Shown here: positions 9,555 to 55,229 of the stretch, piece by piece
Layout: every line of letters starts with the position of its first letter
Position numbering within the stretch: the stretch's first letter is position 1
From: an uncultured Clostridia bacterium
GTDB lineage: Bacteria > Bacillota > Clostridia > UMGS1883
Reading direction: 5' to 3'
Length of the DNA: 64,000 bases
NCBI GenBank assembly: GCA_947630975.1
Contig: CANRJP010000001.1
Location: forward strand, 18,712-82,711
Translations under genes and position numbers: made by a program
Notes under the pieces: model-generated
Databases searched by the model: none
What the model saw: only the letters and a program-made list of their open reading frames with translations
What the model was told of the DNA's origin: nothing

Positions 9555-9736
9555 GGGGATTTCATCTCCTAATTCCTAATTCTCCTGCCCGCCCTGCGGG
9601 TCACTAAAGGCTCACCGCTTACGGGTTCGCATTTTATGCGACAGTTTAAATGTATCAGGTCGCAAGTTAGTCGCAAGATTATAACCTACCCATCGACCAA
9701 CCATGACGGGCCCCCACTATTCCTAATTCCTCATTC

Positions 9737-10108
9737 CTAATTCCTAATTTTCCTCCATCCGCTTCGGGCCGTGCGGAACTTCACGTCCGATACGATGTCG
9801 CCGCCCAGCAGGCTTTTCAGCAGCTCCCACAGCAGGGCCGTCCTGTCCCTGTCAGAAAACGACTGGGACAGGTGGCCGCTTATGCTTTCGCTGGTCACGC
9901 CCGCCGTTACGCCCATGATTTCCACAAACTTCACCGCGAACAGCCGGACTCTGGCGGGAAGCTCCGCCAGCTCCTCGTCGCTGTTCAGGTCGAATTTAAG
10001 CCGTGTGTTCTCCAGCACGTACTGAAGGGCGGCCTCCACCATGAGCACGGTCTCCGGCGTTATGGGGTCAAGACCCAGATTTAAGGCCTTGACCTGCTCC
10101 TCGGTCAC
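9737..10108 (-). CDS. phage head-tail connector/adaptor (gp6-like)
   Basis: 123-aa ORF directly downstream of the major capsid gene (4-bp overlap). Size and position are typical of a head-tail adaptor. Confidence 0.5.
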   Translation of the reverse strand: MTEEQVKALNLGLDPITPETVLMVEAALQYVLENTRLKFDLNSDEELAELPARVRLFAVKFVEIMGVTAGVTSESISGHLSQSFSDRDRTALLWELLKSLLGGDIVSDVKFRTARSGWRKIRN

Positions 10109-12169: not shown

Positions 12170-12598
12170 GATTCATTCCTCCATGTAGAAAAAATTTCAC
12201 CCTCCGTATAGAAAGGTTAAACAAATTGAACTCCTTCCGCCAATGAGGTAAAAAACATCAAAAACACGGGCGTGTACCGGGTTTTTGATACCTCAATCGG
12301 GGTAGGAAATTTGTCCGCGGACAAATTTCCGTAAGCGAAAGCGCCCGATGCGGAAAGGGGGCACGCGGGGAAAACCGCTCGGGTTGTCCCCGCGAGAGCG
12401 CTGTCAGCGCTCCTACCTTCCGTATAGAAAGGCATAAAAAAACGCCCACCGTATAGATGAGCGTAATATGTAATTTTTTATACTAATCCATAATTAAAAT
12501 CAGACACCGAGATGGCGCGGAAAAGGCCGTCGCAAATGTCTGATTTTAGTTGGGGATTAGTATTATGGACACAGTTTAGCGACCTGTCCGGGTCGGGC

Positions 12599-12922
12599 TC
12601 ATAGGCCGGGGATTATCTCTACCACGCCGCGCATGGCGTTGTGAGCCCGTTTCATCAGGGAATTATCATTGAGGTACTCTATACCCTTCAGCGTTATTCT
12701 GGGATTGCTGACGGTCAGCACAACGCTTCCGGTCGCTCCGTACTGAAGGCCGATCCCCTGAATAAGTTCGTTCCGGCAGAGCATCTCAATTATTCTTGTC
12801 CATCTGGTCTCGCTGATTTTCAGTCTTTCGGCCGAGATTTCCGCTATGTCAAACTCCTCGATGTCCATGGCCTTTTCAAGGGTTTTGAGTATCCGGTATA
12901 TGATTTTTATATTCTCGTCCAT
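12599..12922 (-). CDS. YjcQ-like small winged-helix protein (phage-associated)
   Basis: 107 aa (MDENIKIIYRILKTLEKAMDIEEFD…). Resembles the YjcQ family found in Bacillus prophage regions. A rho-independent terminator (12969-12995) separates it from the orphan toxin gene upstream. Confidence 0.4.
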   Translation of the reverse strand: MDENIKIIYRILKTLEKAMDIEEFDIAEISAERLKISETRWTRIIEMLCRNELIQGIGLQYGATGSVVLTVSNPRITLKGIEYLNDNSLMKRAHNAMRGVVEIIPGL

Positions 12923-13128
12923 ATTTTCCTCCGTGCAAAAAGCACGCTGCTAAACGCATCAAAAAAGCACTCTCGAAGTAAGAGTGCTTAATTATAGCTA
13001 AAATGGACTTTGGCGGGCGTCGCGTCTCCCGCATCTCTCGGGTTTCCCCTGTCATGCCATCGGCGTGTGGTCGCAACGAAATTTACCACCTCAAAGTCCA
13101 TCTTTAGCTCACTTATATTATACCACAA

Positions 13129-13647
13129 TTATTTGTTTTTGTAAAGTATCTTTTTGTTATTTATATAATTTTTCCAGCGCCGTTCACTAATTTTCCATGC
13201 AGATATTATCGAATTTTTATATCCTTCCACATCTGAAGTCGTATGTAAACGTAAAATCACTTGAAATGTCAAATTTTCAGCTTTAATGCTTTTTAAAATC
13301 AATGCTGAATTTTTCTTGTCCTCAAGAATATAATCCGGCTTCTCAACCGCAAGTTTTAAGAAAGGTTCAATTATTTCAAAATGACCCGGATGGCGTTCCT
13401 CAATATGAGCTATTCGTTCCTCGGTAATGATAACTTCATCTGTAGTTATATTGTCAGCAACACACTTATACAAATCCTTGTCTATACTACCAATGAACCT
13501 CACATTTCCTCCCGCCGTTTCATCCTTAGTTGTCTTTATTATACCACTTTCCGCAGGTTTGTCAAGAGTTTTTTCATTTGCGGGCTTGTCAATGACCACT
13601 TTATCAAAATGCCGCCCCGTGGCTTTAAAAAATTCCTCATCGCTCAT
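13129..13647 (-). CDS. orphan polymorphic-toxin C-terminal cassette (uncharacterised toxin domain)
   Basis: Begins MSDEEFFKATGRHF. The full-length MuF toxin (13898-15361) has M-NDEEFFKATGRHF at its MuF/C-terminal-domain junction (residues 300-314), and the following ~158 aa are unrelated. This is the classic orphan-module architecture. Confidence 0.5.
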   Translation of the reverse strand: MSDEEFFKATGRHFDKVVIDKPANEKTLDKPAESGIIKTTKDETAGGNVRFIGSIDKDLYKCVADNITTDEVIITEERIAHIEERHPGHFEIIEPFLKLAVEKPDYILEDKKNSALILKSIKAENLTFQVILRLHTTSDVEGYKNSIISAWKISERRWKNYINNKKILYKNK

Positions 13648-13701
13648 TAGCTTTTAAAAGCACGTCCGAAAACGTGCTTTTTTATTCGGTTGGTTGGTAC
13701 A

Positions 13702-13914
13702 TTAAAAATCTGACATATCTATGGATACATTGTTTACATGTATCATGCATCCACAATTATTACACCTGAAACAATTACAATGTGATAAATCCTTGCAATA
13801 CTCCGGAGCAACAAACACTCCATCATGACATTTATTACAAGATATTTTTTCTCCCGATTGAATTTTTTTCACAATTTCGAAAATGTCTTCCGAATCGCTA
13901 AAATTTTTTTCCAT
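13702..13914 (-). CDS. Cys-rich small protein, candidate immunity protein for the MuF toxin
   Basis: 70 aa with CxxC…CxC…CxxC motifs. Its start overlaps the end of the toxin gene (translational coupling). Confidence 0.4.
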   Translation of the reverse strand: MEKNFSDSEDIFEIVKKIQSGEKISCNKCHDGVFVAPEYCKDLSHCNCFRCNNCGCMIHVNNVSIDMSDF

Positions 13915-15361
13915 TAAAATAACCGCCCTTCTTCCATTGTAGTTCAGGATATGCCGCTTTCACACGTTTTATAATAAGCTTCTTCTCGGCAACCGTCAAT
14001 TCATTTCTGCCTTCATAGTGCATTTTTTCAGCTAAAAAACAATTTACCTCCGCCCATTGACAGTAACCCATATCGTATTTATGATGTGTAATTTCATGTA
14101 CAACAGCTTGCGCTGCATTCTTCTCATTTTTCGTGTTAGAAACAAAAATTTTTATAACATCGCCTTGTTGCACACCACGATTGGTATGAGGTTGCGGCTC
14201 ATAAATAAGCTGGGGTCTTATGCCGGTCTGTTGAATGTATTCCAGCGTCTCTCGTCCAATTGGCGTTGTTTCAAGATTATCAGCTATTTTCTGAGGGGTT
14301 ATTTCAACATTTTCGTCAATATTCTCATATTGGAAAATGTCTTCGGCTCTTGCATAATTTATTATATCACTTTTCCCCGATTTGTCAATAGGGAAATGCC
14401 GCCCCGTGGCCTTAAAAAACTCCTCGTCATTCATTAGTTTGTACTGGACGAAGCAGCGGCAGTTGATGTCCTGACTTGCCACGCCGCTTTTACCGGGGCA
14501 GTCGGCCATGCTACCGTCGGAGAGAGTGAACTGCTCATCGGCCAGCACCGTCACGCCCTCCATCATTTGATGGTCGGCCTTGCCGCCCACATAGGTTTTC
14601 CAGCCGTGCTTGGTCTTGACACGGTGATTGGGCCGGACGCGCTCGTCCTTCATGGTGCGCCATATCTTCACCATCCGCAAATCCGCGCCGCTCTCTCGCA
14701 GCCCCTCGTCCAGACGGGCCGCCGAATCGTACATACCGGCCTCCCGCACTCTGTGTGTCTCGGTGCGGGCTATCCTCACGGCCTTTTTGTAATCGCCCTC
14801 CACGCGGCCGGCGATCCGCCCGGCCATGGTCTCGATGCGGTCGCCGTTGGTCAGTCCGGTCATGATGTCCCGCTTTATATCATACACCACCTGACGGCGG
14901 TTCCGTTCCAGACGGGCGTTAAGCGTCAGACCGGCAATGGGATTTTCCACCGCCTGCTTTATCACCTCCGGCGTCACCGTGGGAACGCCTTTCAGCGCCC
15001 GCTTAAGCTCCGCCGTATCAGCGGCCCGTTCCACCGCCGCCGCCGTGTCCCTGTATGCCCGCTCGTAGGTCTCCGCCGCCAGCTCGGCGATGAGCTGCTT
15101 CGCCCGTGGGCTTACGCCGTCCAGCCGCCGCTGTATCTCCTCAAGAAATCCGGCGTAGCGGTTCTCCCGCATCAGGGCCTCGAAGGTCAGACGCCCGTCG
15201 ACGGCCATGTCGGCGTATTCCGTGCCAAGGAACATCTTAAGCTCCTTTATCAGCTCACGGTACAGCCGCCTCAGCTCTTTTTCCGCGCCCTGCTCCCGGT
15301 GCTCCGCTATGCGTCTGAGCTGCACCAGCGCCCGCTGAAGCTCCTTATCGTTAACGGCCAT
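13898..15361 (-). CDS. phage head morphogenesis protein, MuF/SPP1 gp7 family, fused to a C-terminal HExxH toxin-like domain (MuF polymorphic toxin)
   Basis: Residues ~1-299 carry MuF motifs (RIARTETHRV…DERVRPNHR…NCRCF) and the gene lies directly downstream of the portal. The C-terminal 173 aa are an extra domain containing HEITHH (HExxH). Confidence 0.7.
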   Translation of the reverse strand: MAVNDKELQRALVQLRRIAEHREQGAEKELRRLYRELIKELKMFLGTEYADMAVDGRLTFEALMRENRYAGFLEEIQRRLDGVSPRAKQLIAELAAETYERAYRDTAAAVERAADTAELKRALKGVPTVTPEVIKQAVENPIAGLTLNARLERNRRQVVYDIKRDIMTGLTNGDRIETMAGRIAGRVEGDYKKAVRIARTETHRVREAGMYDSAARLDEGLRESGADLRMVKIWRTMKDERVRPNHRVKTKHGWKTYVGGKADHQMMEGVTVLADEQFTLSDGSMADCPGKSGVASQDINCRCFVQYKLMNDEEFFKATGRHFPIDKSGKSDIINYARAEDIFQYENIDENVEITPQKIADNLETTPIGRETLEYIQQTGIRPQLIYEPQPHTNRGVQQGDVIKIFVSNTKNEKNAAQAVVHEITHHKYDMGYCQWAEVNCFLAEKMHYEGRNELTVAEKKLIIKRVKAAYPELQWKKGGYFNGKKF

Positions 15362-15367
15362 AACCTA

Positions 15368-16819
15368 TCACTCCAGACTGATTTCGCCCTCTTCCTCGCC
15401 GGTCCCGTCTGTCAGGGCGGGTATTCCTTCCGTCTCGGCCTCGGCCATTTCCAGCGCGTAGTCCACGTCGTCTATTTCCGGCACGGCTATGCCCCAGGCC
15501 AGAGACTTGGGCAGGCCCGCCGCCATGAGCGCCTGAGCCGCCTGAGCGTTGCTGAGTGTGTCCATGGGGAAGTTGCGTTTGAAGTCCATGGTTATCTGCA
15601 AGGGGTCAACCGCGATTTGCTTTAAAGTCCAGAAGCCCGCCAGCAGCCGCCACATATGGGTCGCCGCGTCCATCATCTTCGCCTGGAACATTCCGCACTT
15701 GGTTTCAAGGCCGTGAAGCTTGAATTTTAACGAGACGCCGCTGGCCGTGCCGAAGGTTTCGTCGCTGAGGTCCGGCGTCTTGCTGAAGCGGTAGATGTTC
15801 CCCTCGAGCCGGTCAAGCTGGTGCTCGGCAAAGCTGTCATTCACGTCCTTTGTCAGAAAGTATATCTTCCGCTCCGAGGTGGCTCCCGTGCCGGGAATGG
15901 AAAAGGCTCCGCTTCTGCGGGCCTCGTCGAGGGTTTCGTCGTCCGGACTTAAGCCCTGGAACACCATATAGGCGTGGGCGAAGCTCTCCACGTCGTTTAT
16001 GTTGTCGCTGAGCACCTTTTCGTAGGCGTCTATCTCGCTGAGAACCTTTTCCGCGTCCCCGATGCGCTCGTTGTTGTTTTCCACCGCCTGAAGGGGACAG
16101 CCGCCGAACAAGTGCATCCGGCTTTCAATCAGCTTCAGGTCGCCGAGCCCGCCCTCGTAGACGTGGTACATCTCGCTGTCGTAAAACTCGGCGTGCCAGG
16201 TCTTTGCCCCTCCGGCCAGCTCGGTATAATAATACCTTACGGCATATTCCGGCTCGGACAGGCGGGAGCTTGACAGGCTCACCGTCTCCCATGCCGGCAC
16301 CGGCATAACCCTCGCCTCGCCCTCGGGGTCAACATAGAACAGCCGCCCCGCGTATCCGGATATGGCGGCCATCTTCGTTATCTCCATGTCCACGCCGAAC
16401 ATATTGTTTCGCGTGACGAAATCGGTCACGGCTTTTGTAGCCCTGTCCACCGCCGCCGCTCCGCCGGTGACGGCCTCCGCCTCGGCGGTTCTGCTGTAAC
16501 CGTAGGCGATGGGCTTTCCGGCGAAATATCCCGTCTTGAAATCTACTATCTCGCCGACGAAATCGGTCTTGACCTTGTTGTTGATGGGGTCCGTCTCGTG
16601 GAACCGGGGCTCCCGCCCGTCGATGGGAGAGCTGCCGTCAAGGCCCATGTAACGGTTGTACATCTCGCGGCTGTATTTGGCGTTGAGCTTGTGCTTGCGG
16701 ATGATTTTTCCCAGCAGCGCCGGGGATATGGGCCCCCGGCCAAGCTCGCCCAGCTCCGCCTTTATCTCGGCCAGCTCCGCCGAATAATCAGGATATACGT
16801 TTGTTTTGTTTCTTCCCAT
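15368..16819 (-). CDS. phage portal protein, SPP1 gp6-like
   Basis: 483 aa, located between terminase large and the MuF protein. Length and sequence are consistent with SPP1-family portals. Confidence 0.8.
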   Translation of the reverse strand: MGRNKTNVYPDYSAELAEIKAELGELGRGPISPALLGKIIRKHKLNAKYSREMYNRYMGLDGSSPIDGREPRFHETDPINNKVKTDFVGEIVDFKTGYFAGKPIAYGYSRTAEAEAVTGGAAAVDRATKAVTDFVTRNNMFGVDMEITKMAAISGYAGRLFYVDPEGEARVMPVPAWETVSLSSSRLSEPEYAVRYYYTELAGGAKTWHAEFYDSEMYHVYEGGLGDLKLIESRMHLFGGCPLQAVENNNERIGDAEKVLSEIDAYEKVLSDNINDVESFAHAYMVFQGLSPDDETLDEARRSGAFSIPGTGATSERKIYFLTKDVNDSFAEHQLDRLEGNIYRFSKTPDLSDETFGTASGVSLKFKLHGLETKCGMFQAKMMDAATHMWRLLAGFWTLKQIAVDPLQITMDFKRNFPMDTLSNAQAAQALMAAGLPKSLAWGIAVPEIDDVDYALEMAEAETEGIPALTDGTGEEEGEISLE

Positions 16820-16945: not shown

Positions 16946-18178
16946 TTACAGCCTCTTTCCCGCCTGAATACGGGCCTCGAGCATATCGCCCTCCACCGCG
17001 TAACGCAGGGCGTCCATCAGATGGTTGTCGGCGTCCACCGGCCGGGCCAGTGTGTTGCCGTATTTGTCCTCCTCCCAGCGGTACTGGGATATTTCTTTCT
17101 TGAAGTTTTCACAGCCGCTGTCCACGATGATTTCATAGTCCAGCAGCCACCGTATGCCACGGTTCACGCTGTCGGGGCCCTTCACCGCCGGAATGGCGTT
17201 GACGCCGTTGTCCGCCAGAAAGTCAATGGTCTTTGGGTCGGCGCTGTCGCAGGTTATGTAATTCCGCCCGGCGAACTCACCGGCCACCCTCAGCAGCTCG
17301 GCGTCGGACATTCCCGACCGGTACACCTCGCCGAGGATATATATCTTTTTCCGCTTGCGGTCGATGTGCAGCTTGATAAGGGCGTTGGGATCGGCGGCAT
17401 AGCCGAAGTCGCAGCCGAACCGGAGCCTGTCGAACTCCGCCTCCCGGCCGCTCAGATCCTCGACCTTCCAGTTGTCGAAGATGAGGCCCTTAGCCACGCC
17501 CCAGTTCCCCAGCCCCGCCACCTCGTAGCGCTTGGGCCGATTTTTCTTCATGTCCTCGAACAGCTGGCGGTCCCGGTCGTCCAGCCATTCGTTGCACATA
17601 TAGTTTGTGGTCAGGGCGAGGATGTCCGGGCTTACCGTGTCGAAAAACCGCCGCTTCAGCCAGTGGAGCTCGTTCCACGGGTTGAAGGTTATGGTGATCT
17701 GCTTGAACAGTCCCGGCGGTGCCGCGCCGCGTATGGATTCGTCGAGGGTGTTGAAGTCCTCCTCGTCCATTATCTCATAGCCTTCCTCGATCCACATCCA
17801 GCACAAAACGCCCACATCGACGGTTATGGACGTGACCTTGAGCGGGTCGTCAAGGCCCCGAAAATAAATCTTTTGTCCGGTGGGAAGGTAGGTCATTTCC
17901 AACGGGTTAAGCGTCACCCGCCACAGATGCTCGACGCCGAAGCGCCGGATGGCCCACCGAAGCTCGGTAAAGCAGGAGTTTTTCAGCGTGGCCGCCGTCC
18001 GGCGCACAACGAGAGTGTTGGCCTCGGGGTACTTCATCATGCTGAAAATATACCACAGAGCCGCCGTCTTGCTCTTTTTGCTGGCGCGGCTGCCCTTTAC
18101 CACACGGTAGCGGCCCTTGAAGTCCCAAAAGCGCTTGTAGCCGCCGCCCACGATTTCGCTGAGCCTGAGCGGGGGCAT
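16946..18178 (-). CDS. terminase large subunit, PBSX (XtmB) family
   Basis: 410 aa. N-terminal ATPase region (…GSRASKKSKTAALW…) and C-terminal nuclease acidic residues. Follows the small subunit with overlapping start and stop. Confidence 0.85.
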   Translation of the reverse strand: MPPLRLSEIVGGGYKRFWDFKGRYRVVKGSRASKKSKTAALWYIFSMMKYPEANTLVVRRTAATLKNSCFTELRWAIRRFGVEHLWRVTLNPLEMTYLPTGQKIYFRGLDDPLKVTSITVDVGVLCWMWIEEGYEIMDEEDFNTLDESIRGAAPPGLFKQITITFNPWNELHWLKRRFFDTVSPDILALTTNYMCNEWLDDRDRQLFEDMKKNRPKRYEVAGLGNWGVAKGLIFDNWKVEDLSGREAEFDRLRFGCDFGYAADPNALIKLHIDRKRKKIYILGEVYRSGMSDAELLRVAGEFAGRNYITCDSADPKTIDFLADNGVNAIPAVKGPDSVNRGIRWLLDYEIIVDSGCENFKKEISQYRWEEDKYGNTLARPVDADNHLMDALRYAVEGDMLEARIQAGKRL

Positions 18179-18600
18179 TATCCGTCCTCCGGCAGGTCTT
18201 CCACGATCTGCACCGGCGCGGCCCCGTCGATTTTAGTCCTGTCGGTGAACATGGCGTAATATTTGCCCAACAGCTCCGCGGCCTTAAGTCGTTCCCTGGC
18301 GGGCACGTCTATGCTGTCTATCGTCTGAACGCCGTCGCCCACCATGCGAAGCGTCTGTTCGGTCATTTCTCCCCGCAGCACTAATGTCAGATATTCCACA
18401 ATTTCTTGTACGCTGGCCGTTTTTTCATCGTGAATTTTTGCGAGTTGCTCCTCGATATAGCTTTTAATCTCAACATTTTTCAACATCCGCTGTCCCTGAC
18501 TGTAGGCTGTCCTCAGCGAATACCCCGCTCTGACGGCCGCCTGAGTGGCGTTAAGGTCAGTGAGATACTCGTCGCAAAATCTTTTCTGTTTCGGCGTCAC
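18178..18600 (-). CDS. terminase small subunit (Terminase_2/P27 type)
   Basis: N-terminus MTPKQKRFCDEYLTDLNATQAAVRAGYS is the canonical small-terminase HTH signature. Confidence 0.8.
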   Translation of the reverse strand: MTPKQKRFCDEYLTDLNATQAAVRAGYSLRTAYSQGQRMLKNVEIKSYIEEQLAKIHDEKTASVQEIVEYLTLVLRGEMTEQTLRMVGDGVQTIDSIDVPARERLKAAELLGKYYAMFTDRTKIDGAAPVQIVEDLPEDG

Positions 18601-18624: not shown

Positions 18625-18660
18625 TTGTAATCAAAAAGGCACCGGAGCCGTCCTCCCGTG
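18625..18660. terminator. bidirectional rho-independent terminator-like hairpin
   Basis: aaaaaGGCACcggagccgtcctcccGTGCCttattttt: a GC stem flanked by an A-run and a T-run. Confidence 0.4.
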
Positions 18661-18698
18661 CCTTATTTTTCAGCTTACAGTATAGCACAGATGGTTAT

Positions 18699-18738
18699 GG
18701 ACATTCAAGGACATTTATGGACATTTCAGGACATCTTT
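18699..18738. promoter_or_regulatory. four tandem 10-bp-phased direct repeats GGACATTYMA upstream of terS
   Basis: ggacattcaa|ggacatttat|ggacatttca|ggacatcttt, with an exact 10-bp period, ~100 bp upstream of the terminase small subunit start. Confidence 0.5.
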
Positions 18739-18783
18739 TGTTTTTTGGGGGAAAATTTTTTTAAAAAATTTTCAAAAAACACT

Positions 18784-18811
18784 TGACAAACCACGGATTT
18801 CGTGGTATAAT
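18784..18811 (+). promoter_or_regulatory. sigma-70-type promoter (TTGACA-16-TATAAT) for the small + strand gene
   Basis: TTGACA at 18784-18789, TATAAT at 18806-18811, preceded by an A/T-rich UP-like tract, followed by RBS AAAGGAGG. Confidence 0.5.
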
Positions 18812-18836
18812 AGAAACATAGAAAGGAGGTAAGACA

Positions 18837-18962
18837 GTGGCAAAGAAAAACAAAAAGCCCGCCAAGCGCAAGAACGAAATGTGGACAATCGTCATAAATG
18901 CGTTAGCGGACTTAATCATCGGAACTCTGCTGATACTCATCCAGAAGCTGATTGAGGATTAA
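18837..18962 (+). CDS. 41-aa small membrane protein (moron)
   Basis: GTG start 7 nt after AAAGGAGG. Protein is VAKKNKKPAKRKNEMWTIVINALADLIIGTLLILIQKLIED: a Lys-rich N-terminus followed by a single TM helix. Not in the ORF track because it is under 60 aa. Confidence 0.45.
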   Translation: MAKKNKKPAKRKNEMWTIVINALADLIIGTLLILIQKLIED

Positions 18963-19141
18963 CAGAGCGAGGGGAACGGGGCGGCGAGCCGCCCCACCCC
19001 TCAAAATCCATGATAACACAATAATCCGCCATTGTCAAGAGCCATGTCAAAAACTTTATTATTTCTTGGCGTGTTTTTTATCGCCATAGGTATCGCAAAA
19101 TTGGTTTACGTGCTTATCCGAAAGCGTAAGGGGGACTGACC

Positions 19142-19330
19142 GTGGAGACCGTGAAAGAGCTGCGCAAAGCGGCAAAAATGACCCAGCAGGCTTTTGCCGA
19201 TTACTTCGGTGTGCCGAAGCGCACCGTCGAGGACTGGGAGGGCGAAAAGAGCGCGGTAAAGCCTTATTTGCTGGAGCTTATGGAATATAAGCTGCGCCAT
19301 GAAAAAATTATAGCCGAGGCGGAGGGGTGA
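19142..19330 (+). CDS. XRE-family helix-turn-helix transcriptional regulator
   Basis: …LRKAAKMTQQAFADYFGVPKRTVEDWE… is a classical HTH_XRE motif. The + strand placement in a minus-strand region suggests a moron or regulator. Confidence 0.7.
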   Translation: METVKELRKAAKMTQQAFADYFGVPKRTVEDWEGEKSAVKPYLLELMEYKLRHEKIIAEAEG

Positions 19331-19344
19331 CCCTCCGCTTTTTT
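19319..19344. terminator. rho-independent terminator (bidirectional)
   Basis: gcggaggg-gtga-ccctccgc followed by tttttt. Overlaps the stop codon of the XRE gene and lies just downstream of the stop of the minus-strand late activator gene. Confidence 0.6.
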
Positions 19345-19370
19345 ATGCGAATTTTTTCGAGAACAGTCGT

Positions 19371-19829
19371 CTAAAATTCTTTTAATTCCGGGGCGTTCGC
19401 CTTTGCGAAGCTTTTCAACGCTCTGCCGTGCAGGCGTGTCACTTGCCTAATGCTGTAGTTCAGCTTGTCGGCAATATCCTCCCAGGCCATGTCGTTTATG
19501 TACCGCTCCCGGAGGATAAGCCGCTCATGTGGGCTGCTAAGCCGTTCGATAGCTACACGTATTTCCCGGTGAACTTCCACAAGGCGGTCGATCTCGGCGT
19601 TGATTTCCTCTTCGAGGGCGATTATCTTCACCACCGAATTTTCCACCTTGCTTTGGGGTATGCCGCCCTCTATGCGCTCTCCGTCCGTGGGCGGAGAGGA
19701 CACCGACGCGGCCAACTGACGAAGGCGCGACACCTCCCGAAGCCTGCTATCTATCAGTTCGTTAAGCCGCCGCCCACGGTTCAAAAATTCCTTGGCGCCA
19801 AGCCGTCCCGCGCCACGTTCATGTTCCAT
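19371..19829 (-). CDS. phage late-gene transcriptional activator, sigma-70 region-4-like (ArpU/RinA-type)
   Basis: C-terminal ERLILRERYINDMAWEDIADKLNYSIRQVTRLHGRALKSF is a sigma-region-4-type HTH. Positioned upstream of the terminase genes. Confidence 0.55.
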   Translation of the reverse strand: MEHERGAGRLGAKEFLNRGRRLNELIDSRLREVSRLRQLAASVSSPPTDGERIEGGIPQSKVENSVVKIIALEEEINAEIDRLVEVHREIRVAIERLSSPHERLILRERYINDMAWEDIADKLNYSIRQVTRLHGRALKSFAKANAPELKEF

Positions 19830-19868: not shown

Positions 19869-19886
19869 AAACGCACGCGTGCGTTT
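19869..19886. promoter_or_regulatory. 18-bp perfect palindrome upstream of the late activator gene
   Basis: aaacgcacg|cgtgcgttt, preceded by an extra acgcacgc direct copy. Lies in the 5' region of the minus-strand late activator. Confidence 0.35.
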
Positions 19887-19921: not shown

Positions 19922-20329
19922 TTATTGCAGCTCCTCGGCCCTGATGTATATGCCGGGCTTTTCCGCCCAGAACTTTTCGTTGAGCTCGCTGGCAACCTGG
20001 GCGTCGTCATGCCAGAAGCCCAAGACGGTCATGCAGTCCTTGAGCAGCTTTATCAGGTTGTCCGTGTCGGGTTTGGTGTCCTTGTACTGTCCGTCGCTGT
20101 GGCCGGCGGTCTTGGGGAACAGCCAGCGCACCACCAGCCGGACAGGCCCGCTGAGCCGTCTTTCCGGCCGGTGCGGGCTCAGATGCGCCATAAGCTTCGA
20201 CCGGGCGTCCGCCAGCCTCGGCGGCTCGTAGTATACCGGCTTACCCTTAACCACGTGAACGGCCTTTTGCTGATGTGTCACCGTGGGCGGTTCCATTGGC
20301 ATAAAAAATTCAACCGTCAAAAACTTCAC
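19922..20329 (-). CDS. rusA: RusA-family Holliday junction resolvase
   Basis: 135 aa with a …KPDTDNLIKLLKD… motif and Asp residues typical of RusA. Confidence 0.7.
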   Translation of the reverse strand: MKFLTVEFFMPMEPPTVTHQQKAVHVVKGKPVYYEPPRLADARSKLMAHLSPHRPERRLSGPVRLVVRWLFPKTAGHSDGQYKDTKPDTDNLIKLLKDCMTVLGFWHDDAQVASELNEKFWAEKPGIYIRAEELQ

Positions 20330-20781: not shown

Positions 20782-22974
20782 CTATTGCGATATTCGGGTA
20801 ACATTGCCCTTTTTGTCTCTTTGAAGGAAGCCGGATTCATCAATGTGAGTTCTTACGGTGTTGCCGGACTTGCTGCCGCAATATTCCATAATGTCTTTCA
20901 TTTTAGCTACACCGTTTTCGTCCTTCAAGGCTTCAAAGGCGTTGTTAAGGGTCTCATTCCACTCGTCCTGCTTGCTTTTCTTTTTGGCGGGAGCTTTCCG
21001 GCTGCCGCGCCATTGTTTGTCCTCTTCGGGCTCGACGTCCTGGAGTATACCGTCGCCGTCCATTCGGTGAATAGGGTACTCAAACCACAGGTTCACGGGC
21101 TGAAATTTGGGATATTCCCGCAGGGTTCCCTCCACCCGCCAGGCGGTGAGGATTTTGGCCGCTCTCCGGGCCTCGTCCACGGCGCGGTCAAGCTCCATTT
21201 TTTCGGCAAGGCCCAGCCCTTCGCCGCACATCCGGAGAAGCTTCTCGGAGTTGTATCTGTCCTCGGGGGCCACCTCCCGCCCGCGGAGGGCGCGGAGACA
21301 GGCCTTGCACACGGCCCGGTTTTCCTGACGGGCCGTCATGTTCTCGTCCAGCTCCAATTCAATCAGGTCAAGCAGGGCGTCGGGGTCGCGGGCGAACACG
21401 CCGCTGCCGCTGGCGCGGTCCATGCTGCGCTTGGCGGCCTGGGCGCCCTTGCTGTGATGGTGGCAGTATATCACCGCGCAGCCCAGCTCGGCGGCCACCT
21501 TGTCAAACTGATTGCAGAAGTTCGCCATCTGGTCGGCGCTGTTTTCGTCGCCGGTTATGACCTTGTAGATGGGGTCAATGACGATGGCTATGTAATTCTT
21601 ACGGGCCGCCCGGCGGATCAGCTTCGGAGCCAGCCTGTCCATGGGTACGGCCTTGCCCCGAAGGTTCCATATATCTATGTTGCCAAGGTTGTCGGGCCGC
21701 CAGCCAAGAGCCGTGTACACGTCCTTGAAGCGGTGCAGGCAGCTGGCCCGGTCAAGCTCCAGATTAACGTACATCACCCGTCCCCGGGCGCAGTCGAAGC
21801 CGAACCACTGCCGCCCCTCGGCTATGGCGCAGCATAATTCAATGAGGGCGTAGCTCTTGCCCGCCTTGCTTGGCCCGGCCAGCAGCATCTTGTGTCCCTG
21901 ACGGAGAACCCCGTCGATGAGGGGCGGACTGAGGGGCGGCATTTCGTCCCACACGTCCGCCAGACCCTCGGGGTTGGGCAGGTCGTCGCTGACGTCGTCT
22001 ATCCAGTCCCGCCACTCGTCCCAACCGCTTTTGCCGATGTTGGTGGCAAGCAGATACTGCTTTTTGCCCTTGCGGGTCACGCCGGGGAGACGGGACAGGC
22101 GGGAGGGATTGCGGTTCTGTGTGTCGGGGTCGAGACCGTTCTTTTTGCACACGGAATACAGATAGTCCACCCGGTGCTTGTACTCCTTGTAATCGGCGGC
22201 GTCCACCCGCACGATGGCGTGGAGGCTTTTGCCGCCGCTGTACACCAGCGCCGCCACAGGCAGCTCCAGCTCCCGTATTATGGCGTTCTGCCGCGCGAGG
22301 TCAAGGCTGTCGCTCTCCACCAGAGCGAAGCGGAACTCGGTCACATTGTCGTTTTTCACACCCTTGCCGTCAAGGGGGTTGAAGCGCACCCAGGCTCCGG
22401 CGTCGGGGTCGTAATCCCCCAGAACCGCGCCTATGTCGCCCTTGCACCGTGACAGCTCCTGTATCAGCTTACCCGCCGTCCGGTCATAAACGCCCTTGGT
22501 GGGCACCGTCCGGCCCTCGCTGACATAGCTGCGCGTCACATAGCCCACGCACTCCTCGGCCTCGAACAGGGCCTCGAGGTAGGCGATTATCTGTTTGGCC
22601 GGTTCCCATTGGTCGGGGATTTCCAGCTCACGGCCCTCGACCCAGTTTTTGTCCACTATGGCGGGGCCGTCCTCCGCCGAAATAACATCGTCCCAGTCCA
22701 GCTCACGGCCTTCCCCGCTGAAGGGAACCCAGCCGTTTTCCTTTGCCAGCTGCACTATGGTGCCGCCGGTTACCGGATTGGAGGCTCCGTTGAAGCCTTT
22801 CCACTTTTTTTCGCACTCTCCGGTATGATAACGGGCAGCGTCACGCCTGCTCCATTCTTCCCATACCTCCACGCCCAGGCCCTCTTCCTTCAGGGCCATC
22901 CCAACGTTGAGCCATGCGGTGTAGTCCAGTGCTGACGGATCGATGTATTTCAGCAGTTCCTTGTAATCGGTCAT
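20782..22974 (-). CDS. phage replication protein: primase-polymerase N-terminal region plus P-loop ATPase/helicase
   Basis: 730 aa with a Walker A motif (LLAGPSKAGKSYAL) in the C-terminal half and a prim-pol-like N-terminus. The adjacent iterons support a replication role. Confidence 0.7.
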   Translation of the reverse strand: MTDYKELLKYIDPSALDYTAWLNVGMALKEEGLGVEVWEEWSRRDAARYHTGECEKKWKGFNGASNPVTGGTIVQLAKENGWVPFSGEGRELDWDDVISAEDGPAIVDKNWVEGRELEIPDQWEPAKQIIAYLEALFEAEECVGYVTRSYVSEGRTVPTKGVYDRTAGKLIQELSRCKGDIGAVLGDYDPDAGAWVRFNPLDGKGVKNDNVTEFRFALVESDSLDLARQNAIIRELELPVAALVYSGGKSLHAIVRVDAADYKEYKHRVDYLYSVCKKNGLDPDTQNRNPSRLSRLPGVTRKGKKQYLLATNIGKSGWDEWRDWIDDVSDDLPNPEGLADVWDEMPPLSPPLIDGVLRQGHKMLLAGPSKAGKSYALIELCCAIAEGRQWFGFDCARGRVMYVNLELDRASCLHRFKDVYTALGWRPDNLGNIDIWNLRGKAVPMDRLAPKLIRRAARKNYIAIVIDPIYKVITGDENSADQMANFCNQFDKVAAELGCAVIYCHHHSKGAQAAKRSMDRASGSGVFARDPDALLDLIELELDENMTARQENRAVCKACLRALRGREVAPEDRYNSEKLLRMCGEGLGLAEKMELDRAVDEARRAAKILTAWRVEGTLREYPKFQPVNLWFEYPIHRMDGDGILQDVEPEEDKQWRGSRKAPAKKKSKQDEWNETLNNAFEALKDENGVAKMKDIMEYCGSKSGNTVRTHIDESGFLQRDKKGNVTRISQ

Positions 22975-24582
22975 TTATATTACCTCCGGCACATAACGGG
23001 ACGGCACAATTCCCATTGGCAGACGCCAGTTGTTGGCGGCGATGCGGTTCATCATTCTGCTTGCGGCGTCAAAGCTCCACGTGCCCACATGAACAAAGCC
23101 GCGCTGTTCCAGATACCTTATCTGCCTTGGCGTCGCAAGCTTCAAGACGCTGCGCTTTATCAGCCGGTCGATGAGCATCGACGCTTTACCGGCGTTGTCG
23201 ATTTCTCCGGCGTAAATGCCGAATTTTTCCAATATCTGTATCTGTTTTTCGCTGGCGGGGGCCATTTCCCAGCCGAAGGCGGGCACGTAATTTGCGAGAT
23301 CCTCGGCCTGTATACTAAGCTCGAATTGAAGCGGGTCTACCAGCTTCCGCTTTCGATTTTTCATTTCGTCCAAGACCTTTGCCAGTGATTCTTCACGGGC
23401 GGCGACGACGTCGCTCTCCGCCTGCTTTTCGGCGTCCTCTATATCGAACACCTCGCCGGGGGCGGCGGCCATGTTTTCGGTCATCTTCTTCGCCACCTCC
23501 GCGCTTTCGGCGATAAGGCAGGCGGGACGGCAAAGCTCGTGCCGCTCGGTGTGCCACAAAAAGTCCAGCAAAAGCAGCTCCGACTTTCCGGGCGCCAGCC
23601 GTGTGCCACGGCCCACCATCTGGGAGTACAGGCCCCGCACCTTCGTGGGCCGCAGCACCACGACGCAGTCCACCGACGGGCAGTCCCAGCCCTCGGTGAG
23701 GAGCATGGAATTACACAGCACGTCATACTCTCCCGCCTCGAAGGCCGCTATGATGGCCCCGCGGTCGGAGCTCTCGCCGTTGACCTCGGCGGCCCGCAGT
23801 CCCTTTTCGTTCAATATGTCCCTGAATTTCCGTGATGTGGCTATCAGGGGCAGGAAAACCACCGTCTTTCTGCCCTCGCAGTAGTTCAGCATCTCGTCGG
23901 CAATCTGGTACAGATAGGGGTCGAGGGCGCTGCCCACGTCCGAAGCCTTAAAGTCGCCCTGCTGTATTCCCACGCCGCTCAGGTCCAGCTGAAGGGGGAT
24001 CGTCACGGCCTTGATGGGCGAGAGCCAGCCCTCTTTTATGGCCCGGGGCAGGGTGTATTCGTATGCCAGACTGTCGAACACCTGACCCAGGTTCTTTTTG
24101 TCGCCCCGGTCGGGAGTGGCGGTGACGCCCAGCACCCTCGCCTCGGGGAAGTGGCCGAGGATTTCCCTGTAACCGTCCGACAGGGCGTGGTGTGCCTCGT
24201 CAACGACGATGGTGTTAAAGTAATCGGCGGGAAACCGTTTCAGCCTTGAGGGCCGCTGCAGGGTCTGTACGCTGCCCACCGTGACCCTGCTCCACGTGTC
24301 GTCAAGACAGCTCTGCTCCGCCTTTTCCACCGAGGGGACGAGGCCGGTAACCTTGCGGAGCTTGTCGGCGGCCTGAGAGAGCAGCTCGCCCCTGTGGGCC
24401 AGCATCAGACAGCGGTCGCCCTCCCGCACCCTGTCCTCGACCACCTTGGAGAACACCACCGTCTTTCCTGTGCCGGTGGGCAGCACCAGCAGCGTGCGGC
24501 GGTTGCCCATGCCCCAGTGATTATGTATGCTCTCCCGGGCTTCCTGCTGGTAGGGGCGCAGCTCCATATTTGACGCGCCCAT
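22975..24582 (-). CDS. SF2 DEAD/DEAH-box DNA helicase (phage)
   Basis: Motifs LVLPTGTGKT (I), VVDEAHH (II, DEAH) and VTATPDR (III). Confidence 0.75.
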   Translation of the reverse strand: MGASNMELRPYQQEARESIHNHWGMGNRRTLLVLPTGTGKTVVFSKVVEDRVREGDRCLMLAHRGELLSQAADKLRKVTGLVPSVEKAEQSCLDDTWSRVTVGSVQTLQRPSRLKRFPADYFNTIVVDEAHHALSDGYREILGHFPEARVLGVTATPDRGDKKNLGQVFDSLAYEYTLPRAIKEGWLSPIKAVTIPLQLDLSGVGIQQGDFKASDVGSALDPYLYQIADEMLNYCEGRKTVVFLPLIATSRKFRDILNEKGLRAAEVNGESSDRGAIIAAFEAGEYDVLCNSMLLTEGWDCPSVDCVVVLRPTKVRGLYSQMVGRGTRLAPGKSELLLLDFLWHTERHELCRPACLIAESAEVAKKMTENMAAAPGEVFDIEDAEKQAESDVVAAREESLAKVLDEMKNRKRKLVDPLQFELSIQAEDLANYVPAFGWEMAPASEKQIQILEKFGIYAGEIDNAGKASMLIDRLIKRSVLKLATPRQIRYLEQRGFVHVGTWSFDAASRMMNRIAANNWRLPMGIVPSRYVPEVI

Positions 24583-54960: not shown

Positions 54961-55026
54961 CACCTTCAAAAAAGTTCAAAAAAATTCAAAAAAGGTATTG
55001 ACAAACGGGATTTTTTATGGTATCAT
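54961..55026 (+). promoter_or_regulatory. tRNA operon promoter with phased A-tract UP element
   Basis: A6-gttc-A7-ttc-A6 tracts at 54966-54994. TTGACA (54998-55003)-17-TATCAT (55021-55026), located 24 bp before tRNA-Thr. Confidence 0.5.
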
Positions 55027-55050: not shown

Positions 55051-55126
55051 GCCGGCGTAGCTCAGTTGGTAGAGCAGCTGATTTGTAATCAGCAGGTCGT
55101 AGGTTCGAGTCCTATTGCCGGCTCCA
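55051..55126 (+). tRNA. tRNA-Thr (anticodon TGT)
   Basis: Cloverleaf: acceptor gccggcg/tgccggc, D-arm gctcagttggtagagc, anticodon stem gctga/tcagc with loop ttTGTaa, T-arm gtaggttcgagtcctat, and encoded CCA. Confidence 0.85.
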
Positions 55127-55144
55127 CTTTACTTAACTTAATAT

Positions 55145-55229
55145 GGAGGAGTTCCCGAGCGGCCAAAGGGGGCAGACTGTAAATCTGTTGTCACTGACTT
55201 CGGTGGTCCGAATCCACCCTCCTCCACCA
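55145..55229 (+). tRNA. tRNA-Tyr (anticodon GTA), class II with long variable arm
   Basis: Acceptor ggaggag/ctcctcc, anticodon loop ctGTAaa, long variable arm tgtcactgacttcggtggt, T-arm ggtgg-tccgaat-ccacc, and encoded CCA. Confidence 0.85.

What the first reader, a model, noticed from the sequence alone, without database searches (positions are those of the whole stretch)
18699..18738. Four 10-bp-phased GGACATT direct repeats in front of the terminase small-subunit gene
The repeats ggacattcaa / ggacatttat / ggacatttca / ggacatcttt have an exact helical-turn period. That implies a protein binding on one face of the DNA. The site is ~100 bp upstream of terS and downstream of the sigma-like late activator gene. 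The repeats are candidate binding sites for the late activator or for TerS (a pac-like site).
Basis: seen in the sequence. Interest (0 to 1): 0.5.

Follow-up and report, generated by a model that had tools for sequence, protein, structure and literature searches.

The report
Late-regulator binding repeats at phage late promoter
The four evenly spaced repeats are real and are most likely the docking sites of the prophage's small late-gene regulator at the single promoter that switches on the packaging and virion genes, a known kind of switch; here it is always followed by a terminator that the late transcripts must somehow pass.

Summary
Observation confirmed. GGACAT occurs four times at an exact 10-bp period (18699-18734). 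It is the only array of at least 4 phased copies in the 64 kb, and none is expected by chance.

All neighbouring phage genes run on the minus strand, where the array reads (A/G)ATGTCC x4. It sits at about -28 to -63 of an extended -10 promoter (TGcTATACT, 18687-18679). Next come a strong hairpin plus U-run (18664-18633), an RBS and terS.

The "sigma-like" gene (19371-19829) is a DUF1492/LtrB late transcriptional regulator: a coiled coil plus a sigma region-4-like HTH. Published work shows that Ltr proteins bind direct repeats upstream of terS.

In relatives the cassette (repeats, -10, hairpin) travels with the regulator and not with TerS. The repeat core also co-varies with the regulator's recognition helix. 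So the late-activator reading is supported and the TerS/pac reading is not.

This is a new member of a known kind.

By-product: the order repeats, -10, terminator-like hairpin, first late gene is conserved in about 20 LtrB clades. It also holds in phi11 (RinA), phi13 (LtrC) and phiFL2A (ArpU). This window's late operon also contains internal sense terminators. Together these suggest that Ltr-dependent transcription bypasses terminators, as with lambda Q. That is untested.

The parts
18699..18738 (-). Four direct repeats with a 10-bp period. On the minus strand they read AAAGATGTCC TGAAATGTCC ATAAATGTCC TTGAATGTCC. The cores lie at about -28..-33, -38..-43, -48..-53 and -58..-63 of the inferred start. 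Proposed Ltr operator array.
   Evidence: conserved in L109, L110-112, L120, L108, L047, with a concerted variant ATGTCA in L119
18703..18708 (-). -35-like hexamer TTGAAT, 18-nt spacer. It overlaps the proximal repeat.
   Evidence: promoter scan; the proximal repeat occupies the -35 position in all clades
18679..18687 (-). Extended -10 element TGcTATACT of the inferred late promoter. It lies a fixed 11 nt after the proximal repeat in every ATGTCC-type locus.
   Evidence: the phi13 TSS23 published in PMC13123087 lies 7-8 nt after the equivalent TATAAT
18672..18677 (-). Second -10-like hexamer TAAGCT, 1 nt after the -10. Its function is unexplained.
   Evidence: TAnnnT at offset 0-2 in 14 of 23 representatives; also in phi11, phiFL2A and SAP2
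18671..18671 (-). Inferred transcription start (G of the conserved GAAAAA), accurate to +/-1-2 nt.
   Evidence: Inference from the -10 position; conserved GAAAAA after the hexamers
18633..18664 (-). Leader hairpin (stem 18662-18638, GGCACGGGAG-GACGG-CTCCGGTGCC) followed by TTTTT. It looks like an intrinsic terminator at about +8..+39.
   Evidence: hairpin in the MFE structure; -16.7 kcal/mol for the stem alone; compensatory GGCGC/GCGCC in L110
18609..18617 (-). Ribosome-binding site GAAAGGAGG of terS. Only about 30 nt separate the U-run from the GTG, and no promoter-like sequence lies there.
18178..18600 (-). terS (Terminase_2), the first gene of the late operon. It is followed by terL (16946-18178) and the portal gene (15368-16819).
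19371..19829 (-). ltr: DUF1492/LtrB late transcriptional regulator, 152 aa. N-terminal helical hairpin plus C-terminal sigma region-4-like HTH. Recognition helix YSIRQVTRLHGRAL.
18739..18782 (.). A/T-tract region between the repeats and the divergent promoter. It resembles an UP element for the + strand promoter.
   Evidence: partly shared with L109 and L119
18783..19345 (+). Divergent accessory insert between ltr and its target. It holds a consensus promoter (18783-18811), a 41-aa membrane peptide ORF (18837-18962), a 62-aa HTH_3 ORF (19142-19330) and a terminator (19319-19345). It is not part of the switch: it is absent in L110 and L119, and L109 carries different cargo at the same site.
12965..12989 (-). 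Strong sense-strand intrinsic terminator inside the late operon, at the end of the skipping-rope RNA unit.
12442..12464 (-). Strong sense-strand intrinsic terminator inside the late operon, 270 nt upstream of the scaffold gene. No promoter is predicted after it.

Best explanation
The four repeats are the operator array of the prophage's own late transcriptional regulator, an LtrB/DUF1492 protein encoded at 19371-19829. They sit at the single late promoter that drives terS, terL, the portal gene and the rest of the virion genes on the minus strand.

Proposed working:
- Several regulator molecules bind head-to-tail, one per helical turn, through their sigma region-4-like helix-turn-helix. The N-terminal coiled coil probably holds them together.
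- The promoter-proximal molecule occupies the place where sigma region 4 normally reads the -35 element. The extended -10 element TGcTATACT follows 11 bp later.
- These transcripts must cross a hairpin plus U-run at +8..+39, and further terminators inside the operon. The switch therefore probably includes a way past terminators.

Status of each step:
- Shown here: the anatomy, its conservation, and the co-variation of repeat and recognition helix.
- Shown in the literature for other Ltr proteins: binding to such repeats and dependence of late transcription on the regulator.
- Inferred: binding by this protein, the start site, the stoichiometry, and terminator bypass.
For: 1. Family: Pfam DUF1492 at 5.8e-11 plus Sigma70_r4; PHROG 'transcriptional regulator/activator'. 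The gene lies at the end of the replication module (helicase, primase, RusA). DUF1492 is Ltr family III, and one member was tested by reporter (PMC3753634).

2. Fold: AlphaFold pLDDT 84, helical hairpin plus a 3-helix C-terminal domain. The best structural matches are sigma region-4 domains, including sigmaE r4 bound to -35 DNA. A profile search of PDB sequences also hits only sigma r4.

3. The cassette follows the regulator:
- L109 (regulator 91% identical) has identical repeats, -10 and hairpin, but a different insert and an unrelated first late gene.
- L110-112 (69%) have ATGTCC x4 overlapping the ltr stop and an unrelated packaging module.
- L120 (60%) has the same core.

4. Co-variation:
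- L119 has the same N-terminal domain as L110 but a different C-terminus (SVRQVLRVHG). All three of its repeats read ATGTCA.
- L108 is only 33% identical outside the helix but 9/14 identical within it, and has ATGTCC x5.
- L047 was found by DNA pattern alone. Its regulator has the helix YSIRQTTRIHG.
- Clades with the helix S[IM]RT[IV]HRIH have TGGCAC repeats. Clades with ADKST[IV]RRWH have AAGCAC repeats.

5. Geometry: a fixed 11-nt gap separates the proximal repeat from TGnTATAMT in all ATGTCC-type loci, although the spacer sequence varies.

6. This is the only such array in the window. That matches the published single Ltr-dependent late promoter (PMC3152322, PMC3753634).

7. Phi13 TSS23 was mapped experimentally just after the equivalent TATAAT next to the repeats (PMC13123087).
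Against: - There is no binding or expression data for this protein or this DNA.
- The regulator gene is 633 bp from the repeats, not immediately next to them as in the described systems. Relatives without the insert explain this as a secondary insertion.
- The core promoter (TTGAAT, 18-nt spacer, TG-extended TATACT) looks strong enough to fire without an activator. The role of the bound protein may therefore not be simple activation of initiation.
- The terminator-like hairpin downstream of the promoter is awkward for a plain activator model.
- For phi11 the published RinA-dependent 5' end lies downstream of the terminator (PMC3152322). This does not fit a start next to the repeats.
- Co-variation rests on about 8 independent lineages read by eye, not on a formal statistical test.
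Confidence: 0.8

Rival explanations
1. Same binding sites, different mechanism (lambda-Q-like or AlpA-like antitermination). The TG-extended -10 promoter fires constitutively, but its transcripts stop at the leader hairpin/U-run, giving an RNA of about 40 nt. The regulator bound at the repeats loads onto RNA polymerase at the promoter and makes it terminator-resistant. The polymerase then reads through the leader terminator and the terminators inside the late operon.
For: - The order repeats, near-consensus -10 (mostly TGn-extended), hairpin plus T-run, RBS is conserved in about 19 of 20 LtrB clades from Oscillospiraceae, Streptococcus, Gardnerella and Terrisporobacter. There is no room for a promoter after the hairpin.
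- The same order is found in phi13 (LtrC). There the published TSS23 lies upstream of a hairpin at +28..+46 plus U-run (PMC13123087).
- It is also found in phi11 and SAP2 (RinA) and in phiFL2A (ArpU).
- The published constructs show that the intergenic terminator blocks Pcad read-through to background when ltr is mutated (PMC3152322, PMC3753634).
- The 59-nt 'repeat block' that confers specificity in the published chimeras spans, at the equivalent position in phi11 and SAP2, the -10 identified here.
- The window's late operon has strong sense-strand terminators at 12989-12965 and 12464-12442, but only one repeat array.
- As in lambda, the regulator gene sits directly upstream of the late promoter.
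Against: - The fold does not resemble Q proteins; only a sigma4-like domain is seen.
- The second -10-like hexamer lies 0-2 nt after the -10, not in the clearly transcribed region where lambda-type pause elements lie.
- For phi11 and 80alpha the published triphosphate-selected 5' end is downstream of the terminator (PMC3152322).
- The hairpin could simply be the early-operon terminator and/or a 5' stabiliser, tolerated because the activated promoter is very strong.
- No paper in the searchable library proposes antitermination for Ltr proteins. The idea is untested rather than supported.
Confidence: 0.35
2. The repeats are a pac-type recognition site for the small terminase. TerS oligomers bind phased boxes next to their own gene to start headful packaging, as at SPP1 pacL/pacR.
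For: - The array is about 100 bp upstream of terS. TerS here is a Terminase_2 protein with an SPP1-like portal and TerL.
- Phased short boxes are a known feature of SPP1 pac (own knowledge, not checked here).
Against: - Identical repeats precede unrelated first late genes in L109, L110 and L120.
- Homologous TerS in L119 (71%) and L113 (35%) goes with different repeats.
- 79 of 80 TerS-homologue loci lack ATGTCC pairs. The one exception (L047) has the matching regulator helix.
- The fixed register to a -10 element is a promoter property.
Confidence: 0.05
3. The repeats are an operator of the divergent insert. For example, they could be sites for the 62-aa HTH_3 protein controlling the consensus + strand promoter at 18783-18811 or repressing the late promoter in the lysogen.
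For: The array lies 45 bp upstream of the -35 of that promoter, and an Xre-type HTH gene is encoded in the insert.
Against: - The same repeats occur in L110-112, L120, L108 and L047 without this insert.
- They also occur in L109 with a different insert that has no recorded HTH_3 match.
- Direct repeats in head-to-tail arrangement are unusual for dimeric Xre repressors (own knowledge).
Confidence: 0.03
4. The repeats are chance or a structural feature only: bent DNA, or iteron-like origin repeats next to an A/T-rich tract.
For: An A/T-rich tract lies directly beside the array.
Against: - Chance is excluded.
- The core is conserved across lineages with 33-91% regulator identity while the flanks diverge.
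- The replication genes are elsewhere, and a 10-bp unit is short for iterons (own knowledge).
Confidence: 0.02

Closest known systems
Ltr superfamily late promoters of Gram-positive siphophages (RinA of phi11/80alpha, ArpU of phiFL2A, LtrC of phi55/phi13, LtrB = DUF1492; Quiles-Puchalt 2013, PMC3753634; Ferrer 2011, PMC3152322; PMC13123087)
   Same: [quoted passage not shown]
- Two to four direct repeats distal to it and upstream of terS.
- Specificity lies in the C-terminal domain and a single late promoter is used.
- DUF1492 is family III of this superfamily.
- The -10, the second hexamer and the leader hairpin found here are also present in phi11, SAP2, phi13 and phiFL2A.
   Different: - The core sequence is new (ATGTCC), with a strict 10-bp unit.
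- The repeats are separated from ltr by a 560-bp divergent accessory insert.
- The host is a gut Clostridia/Oscillospiraceae-type lineage rather than staphylococci, streptococci or enterococci.
- The LtrB family itself has only one published reporter test and no binding-site definition.
Alt activator and P-late of lactococcal phage TP901-1
   Same: Four imperfect direct repeats from -76 to -32 upstream of the late start site in front of terS, as cited in PMC3152322 and PMC13123087.
   Different: Alt is described as a separate, narrowly distributed protein family (PMC3753634). Homology to this protein was not examined here.
Lambda Q / Q21 / Q82 and Pseudomonas AlpA antitermination modules
   Same: - The regulator gene lies directly upstream of the late promoter.
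- A DNA site for the regulator lies at the promoter.
- An intrinsic terminator lies between the promoter and the first late gene.
- Terminators (morons) lie inside the late operon.
   Different: - There is no sequence or fold similarity to Q proteins.
- There are four phased sites rather than one Q-binding element.
- No clear pause-inducing element lies in the transcribed leader.
- Antitermination is untested for any Ltr protein.
T4 MotA/AsiA sigma appropriation and class II activators
   Same: An activator site replaces or overlaps the -35 element, combined with a good -10 element.
   Different: Here the activator itself carries a sigma region-4-like domain and binds as a phased array. No co-factor is evident.
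SPP1 pac site (TerS G1P boxes)
   Same: Short phased boxes next to terS of a Terminase_2-type small terminase.
   Different: The repeats do not co-vary with TerS and sit in fixed register with a promoter.

Membership tests
Ltr-controlled late promoter (Ltr superfamily system) | [quoted passage not shown] | tested here: met
   152 aa; Pfam DUF1492 at 5.8e-11 (family III/LtrB); lies after helicase, primase and RusA and before terS; PHROG transcription regulation
Ltr-controlled late promoter (Ltr superfamily system) | [quoted passage not shown] | tested here: met
   Four repeats lie 99-138 bp upstream of terS. In this window they are 633 bp from the ltr stop because of an insert. In L110-112, L119, L120, L108 and L047 the same repeats abut or overlap the ltr stop.
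Ltr-controlled late promoter (Ltr superfamily system) | Repeat sequence is specific to the regulator's C-terminal domain | tested here: met
   Co-variation of repeat core and recognition helix, including the natural C-terminal swap between L110 and L119 and the pattern-first find of L047. This evidence is computational only.
Ltr-controlled late promoter (Ltr superfamily system) | Regulator binds the repeat DNA and is required for late transcription | not testable with these tools
   Needs EMSA or footprinting, plus a reporter or a prophage mutant
Ltr-controlled late promoter (Ltr superfamily system) | Single regulator-dependent promoter for the whole late cluster | tested here: met
   No second ATGTCC array in 64 kb
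TerS pac recognition site | Site sequence co-varies with the small terminase | tested here: not met
   same repeats with unrelated first late genes; homologous TerS with different repeats
Q-type antitermination module | Intrinsic terminator between the late promoter and the first late gene | tested here: met
   Hairpin at 18662-18638 plus T5; conserved in about 19 of 20 clades and in three other Ltr families
Q-type antitermination module | Core promoter able to fire without the regulator | tested here: inconclusive
   TTGAAT, 18-nt spacer, TG-extended TATACT by sequence. Near-consensus -10 elements, mostly TGn-extended, in most clades. Activity not measurable here.
Q-type antitermination module | Sigma-dependent pause element (-10-like) in the initially transcribed region | tested here: inconclusive
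   A conserved second TAnnnT hexamer exists, but only 0-2 nt after the -10, at about -5..+2
Q-type antitermination module | Regulator homologous or structurally similar to Q-lambda, Q21 or Q82 | tested here: not met
   Foldseek against the PDB returns sigma region-4 domains only
Alternative sigma factor | Sigma region 2 (-10 recognition, core binding) present | tested here: not met
   Only region-4 matches. The model shows a helical hairpin plus a sigma4-like domain.

The most novel reading that the evidence does not exclude
Ltr proteins in general (LtrB/DUF1492 here, but also RinA, LtrC and ArpU) are not simple activators of initiation. They are loaded at the phased repeats onto RNA polymerase at a largely self-sufficient extended -10 promoter. 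They then let it run through a conserved promoter-proximal intrinsic terminator and through terminators inside the late operon. This would be a Gram-positive functional analogue of lambda Q built on a sigma region-4-like domain. It would also explain two published puzzles. One is that RinA sites lie more than 155 bp and one terminator away from the mapped phi11 5' end. The other is that the phiFL2A 'start site' lies 2 nt after a tRNA-Arg 3' end, so it is probably a processing end.
Probability: 0.4. Interest if true: 0.75.

Novelty: new member of a known kind. Interest (0 to 1): 0.42.

Why it matters
As found, the array gives a clean, compact example of the late switch of an uncultured gut Clostridia prophage. 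It includes a readable protein-DNA code: recognition helix S-x-R-Q..R-x-H-G pairs with ATGTCC, and other helices pair with TGGCAC or AAGCAC. This can be used to annotate late promoters in metagenomic phages and to predict cross-talk between co-resident prophages and satellites.

The wider pattern is more important if it holds. In four Ltr families the late promoter is followed at once by a terminator-like hairpin. That makes a 15-year-old open point directly testable with one in vitro transcription experiment: how RinA-type regulators act across a terminator. It would also change how late-gene control, and hence transduction and pathogenicity-island transfer, is understood in Gram-positive phages.

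Tried and rejected
- BLASTN of the region against deposited phages gave only short hits in terS and in the insert.
- The genome-contig scan gave no relative above 44% identity. Close relatives came only from the protein search plus contig look-ups.
- Rfam found nothing for the leader in the window or in relatives. A sub-threshold ctRNA hit in L154 is just the hairpin.
A 9-sequence alignment was used instead.
- The fold search gave no Q-like or other antiterminator fold.
- Literature searches linking Ltr, RinA or ArpU with antitermination found nothing relevant.
- I considered a promoter downstream of the hairpin, as the phi11 5' end would suggest. I rejected it for this window because only about 30 nt, including the RBS, remain and no -10-like sequence is found there.
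- I considered the hairpin as a 5' stabiliser only. This is not excluded, but it does not explain the conserved U-run.
- I considered a full sigma factor. Rejected, because there is no region 2.

Full report
OBSERVATION

The + strand reads ggacattcaa ggacatttat ggacatttca ggacatcttt at 18699-18738. GGACAT starts at 18699, 18709, 18719 and 18729. Tandem Repeats Finder gives period 10 and 4.0 copies. A pattern of three phased GGACAT with up to 3 mismatches matches only here. 0.05 matches are expected, and no shuffle of 100 reaches 2. A scan for any hexamer repeated at a 9-12 bp period finds only this array with at least 4 copies in the 64 kb. None appeared in 100 Markov simulations.

CONTEXT

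The phage genes here run on the minus strand (PHROGs):
- helicase, 22975-24582
- primase, 20782-22974
- RusA, 19922-20329
- a 152-aa DUF1492 / Sigma70_r4-like protein, 19371-19829
- TerS (Terminase_2), 18178-18600
- TerL, 16946-18178
- SPP1-type portal, 15368-16819
- MuF-like head protein, then scaffold, capsid, sheath, tape measure and baseplate genes down to the window start

A divergent unit on the + strand lies between the regulator gene and the repeats. It contains:
- a perfect TTGACA-17-TATAAT promoter (18783-18811)
- a 41-aa membrane peptide ORF
- a 62-aa HTH_3 ORF
- a terminator

ANATOMY ON THE MINUS STRAND

Read in the direction of the late genes, the sequence is:

AAAGATGTCC TGAAATGTCC ATAAATGTCC TTGAATGTCC ATAACCATCTG TGcTATACT G TAAGCT GAAAAAT AA-GGCACGGGAG-GACGG-CTCCGGTGCC-TTTTTGATT ... 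GAAAGGAGG ... GTG (terS)

- The scan finds TTGAAT, an 18-nt spacer and TATACT with a TG extension.
- With the start inferred at G18671, the repeat cores lie at about -28 to -63. The proximal one covers the -35 position.
- The hairpin plus U-run occupies about +8 to +39.
- Only about 30 nt, including the RBS, separate the U-run from the start codon.

THE PROTEIN

- A profile search of PDB sequences hits only sigma region-4 segments of FliA, SigF and SigA.
- An AlphaFold model (pLDDT 84) shows a long helical hairpin (residues 18-41 and 59-95) and a three-helix C-terminal domain.
- Foldseek matches the C-terminal domain to sigma region-4 domains, including sigmaE r4 on -35 DNA. There is no sigma region 2 and no Q-like fold.
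- It is therefore a sigma4-like DNA binder, not a sigma factor.

WHAT IS KNOWN

Quiles-Puchalt et al. 2013 (PMC3753634) define the Ltr superfamily: RinA, ArpU, LtrA, LtrB = DUF1492 and LtrC.
- They bind direct repeats just distal to their gene and upstream of terS.
- They are the only phage factor needed for the late operon.
- The repeats and the C-terminal part set specificity, shown by EMSA, repeat mutations and chimeras.
- One DUF1492 member was tested by reporter.

Phi13 Ltr needs 3.5 x 18-bp repeats at -107..-42 (PMC13123087). TP901-1 Alt binds four repeats at -76..-32, as cited in that paper and in PMC3152322. The finding fits this paradigm.

COMPARATIVE TEST: CLOSE RELATIVES

Close relatives exist only in metagenome assemblies.
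- L114-116 carry the identical regulator and locus (L117 holds only the ltr gene).
- L109 (regulator 91%) keeps the four repeats, TGcTATAAT and the hairpin exactly. It has a different divergent insert and an unrelated first late gene.
- L110-112 (69%) have ATGTCC x4 overlapping the ltr stop, no insert, TGaTATACT, a hairpin with compensatory GGCGC/GCGCC, and an unrelated packaging module with a P22-type portal.
- L120 (60%) has ATGACC/ATGTCC/ATGTCC.
- L119 has an N-terminal domain identical to that of L110 but a different C-terminus. All three of its repeats read ATGTCA, while its TerS is 71% identical to the window's.
- L113 has a homologous TerS (35%) but ATGGCA-type repeats.
- L108 has a regulator only 33% identical outside the recognition helix but 9/14 identical within it. 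It carries ATGTCC x5 plus ATGTCA, with the same 11-nt gap to TGcTATAAT.

Among 80 TerS-homologue loci, only L047 has ATGTCC pairs. Its upstream gene encodes a regulator with the helix YSIRQTTRIHG, which is 36% identical over 94 aligned residues.

Other clades pair other helices with other cores:
- S[IM]RT[IV]HRIH with TGGCAC: L001 (x3) and L154 (x3, helix not read here). The related core TGGCAT/C (x4) is in Gardnerella phage vB_Gva_AB1.
- ADKST[IV]RRWH with AAGCAC/GAGCAG: L007, L008. The same repeat cores are in Streptococcus phage Javan630, whose helix was not read here.

The repeats therefore track the regulator's DNA-reading helix and not TerS, the insert or the host. This supports the late-activator reading and argues against the pac reading.

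CONSERVED MODULE

In about 19 of 20 LtrB clades the order is the same:
1. ltr stop
2. two to six repeats with a 10-11 bp period
3. a near-consensus -10, mostly TGn-extended
4. 5-30 nt
5. a strong hairpin (about -9 to -27 kcal/mol)
6. a T-run
7. the RBS and the first late gene (HNH or terS)

Two further conserved details remain unexplained. A second TAnnnT hexamer lies 0-2 nt after the -10 in 14 of 23 representatives, where about 7% would be expected. A GAAAAA motif lies at the inferred start.

THE SAME DESIGN IN OTHER Ltr FAMILIES

Phi11 (RinA):
- TGGCAG x2 follow directly after the rinA stop.
- Then come TATTAT-GA-TAGTGT, an 80-nt leader and the terminator GGGTTGGCT...AGCCAATCC+T6.
- The published 5' end (C, 23 nt before the ATG) lies after that terminator.
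- The authors themselves found the distance of more than 155 bp to the RinA sites puzzling (PMC3152322).

SAP2 (RinA-type):
- GTYTGGAAAAA x2, then TGtTAATAT-GA-TAGCGT, then the same leader. The depositor annotated a terminator in that leader.
- Many staphylococcal phages share the region only from the -10 onward. The module boundary therefore lies at the -10.

Phi13 (LtrC):
- Repeats, then TTGATG, an 18-nt spacer and TATAAT.
- The published TSS23 falls at about 2067/2068.
- A hairpin CTCTCAC-ATTAA-GTGAGGG lies at +28..+46, followed by TTTTTATTTTT.
- The published reporter ends at +50, inside the U-run.
- That paper never mentions a terminator (0 occurrences).

PhiFL2A (ArpU):
- TTGGCGG x3 follow directly after the arpU stop, then TGcTAATAT-AG-TAATAT.
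- A tRNA-Arg gene lies at 14629-14703 in the leader.
- The published start (G, 118 bp before the ATG at 14823, i.e. 14705) is 2 nt after the tRNA 3' end. It is probably a processing end.
- A strong hairpin plus U-run lies at 14763-14795, just before the RBS.

MECHANISM

The best-supported statement is that the repeats are the regulator's operator at the single late promoter. What the bound regulator does is less certain.

A plain class II or 'sigma4-surrogate' activation fits these points:
- the proximal site sits at the -35 position
- the protein has a sigma4-like fold
- the published reporters depend on the regulator

Several points favour an additional or alternative terminator-bypass function:
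- The core promoter looks self-sufficient.
- The terminator lies downstream of it in four Ltr families.
- The published constructs show that this terminator silences Pcad read-through.
- In this window two strong sense terminators (12989-12965 and 12464-12442) lie between terS and the scaffold, capsid and tail genes. They belong to a moron island with its own consensus promoters and a skipping-rope RNA. No second repeat array and no predicted promoter lies after them.

I rate the operator reading at 0.8. Within it, I rate the antitermination variant at about 0.35-0.4.

VERDICT

The finding itself is of moderate-to-low surprise. The conserved promoter-proximal terminator across Ltr families is the part worth an experiment.

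Noticed in passing
window 18783-19345 (+), with a convergent promoter at 19038-19010 (-): An accessory insert lies between ltr and its operator. It holds a perfect sigma-70-type promoter, a 41-aa basic/hydrophobic peptide ORF (18837-18962), a near-consensus promoter on the opposite strand pointing back across that ORF, and then a 62-aa HTH_3 ORF. The layout resembles a type I toxin-antitoxin or another moron. L109 carries different cargo (77-aa and 50-aa ORFs) at exactly the same site, so this looks like an insertion hot spot. Transcripts from the 19038 promoter would run into the late promoter region and meet the leader terminator.
   Followed up: partly
window 12200-13900 (-): A low-GC moron island lies inside the late operon, between the MuF-like gene and the scaffold gene. 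It contains a 70-aa Cys-rich ORF, consensus promoters at 13565-13538 and 13145-13117, a duplicated MuF fragment (DEEFFKATGRHF), a skipping-rope RNA (Rfam RF02924, 13005-13099, 51.7 bits), a 107-aa PHROG 3675 ORF, and strong terminators at 12989-12965 and 12464-12442.
   Followed up: partly
window 12457-12449, 12428-12420 and 12212-12204 (-): Three copies of TCTATACGG occur, the last two within CTTTCTATACGGA/GGG. One is in the terminator hairpin, one just after it, and one just before the scaffold-gene RBS. They may be duplication scars of the island insertion or a further control site.
   Followed up: no
window 9719-9749, 9567-9582 and 2719-2749: 7-bp tandem repeats AGGAATT (minus strand, 2-4.4 copies) occur in three intergenic spots of the late operon, directly before ORF starts. 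They look like strings of Shine-Dalgarno-like units. Their function is unknown.
   Followed up: no
window 19869-19886: A perfect 18-bp palindrome AAACGCACGCGTGCGTTT, with an adjacent AACGCACGCA repeat, lies between RusA and the ltr start. It could be an operator or a hairpin in front of the regulator gene.
   Followed up: no
L158 (Enterococcus phage phiFL2A, GQ478084) 14629-14705: A tRNA-Arg(acg) gene sits in the 800-nt leader between arpU and terS. [quoted passage not shown] This suggests a tRNA-processing end rather than a true start.
   Followed up: partly
L157 (phage phi13, AF424783) 2095-2126 of the locus: A hairpin plus U-run lies at +28..+59 of the published TSS23. The published P23 reporter (-200..+50) ends inside the U-run, so it keeps the hairpin. 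The paper does not discuss a terminator.
   Followed up: partly
L139, L148 and L145, about 20-90 nt after the leader hairpin: A conserved structured element of about 60 nt (CCCGGTGGGGTACTCATAGCCGATTTCGGGCATAGTCGGTGAACTCCTACCCACCGGG) lies in the late leader of one LtrB clade, before a Terminase_2 terS. It has no Rfam match.
   Followed up: partly
window 18672-18677, and the equivalent position in L001, L108, L113, L139, L145, L148, L153, L154, phi11, SAP2 and phiFL2A: A second -10-like hexamer (TAnnnT) lies 0-2 nt after the late-promoter -10, followed by a conserved GAAAAA. The pattern is shared across Ltr families and is unexplained.
   Followed up: partly
window 54965-54994 (+): TTCAAAAAAG x3 with a 10-bp period lies directly upstream of a TTGACA-17-TGgTATCAT promoter, in front of two tRNA genes (55051-55226). 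This is a phased A-tract/UP-like element of a host stable-RNA promoter, and the only other intergenic phased array in the window.
   Followed up: no
L109 3210-3235 of the locus: Two GGACAA units with a 10-bp period (CGGACAAATCCGGACAAAA), inverted relative to the ATGTCC array, lie in the leader between the hairpin and a different terS-like gene. They are absent from the window.
   Followed up: no
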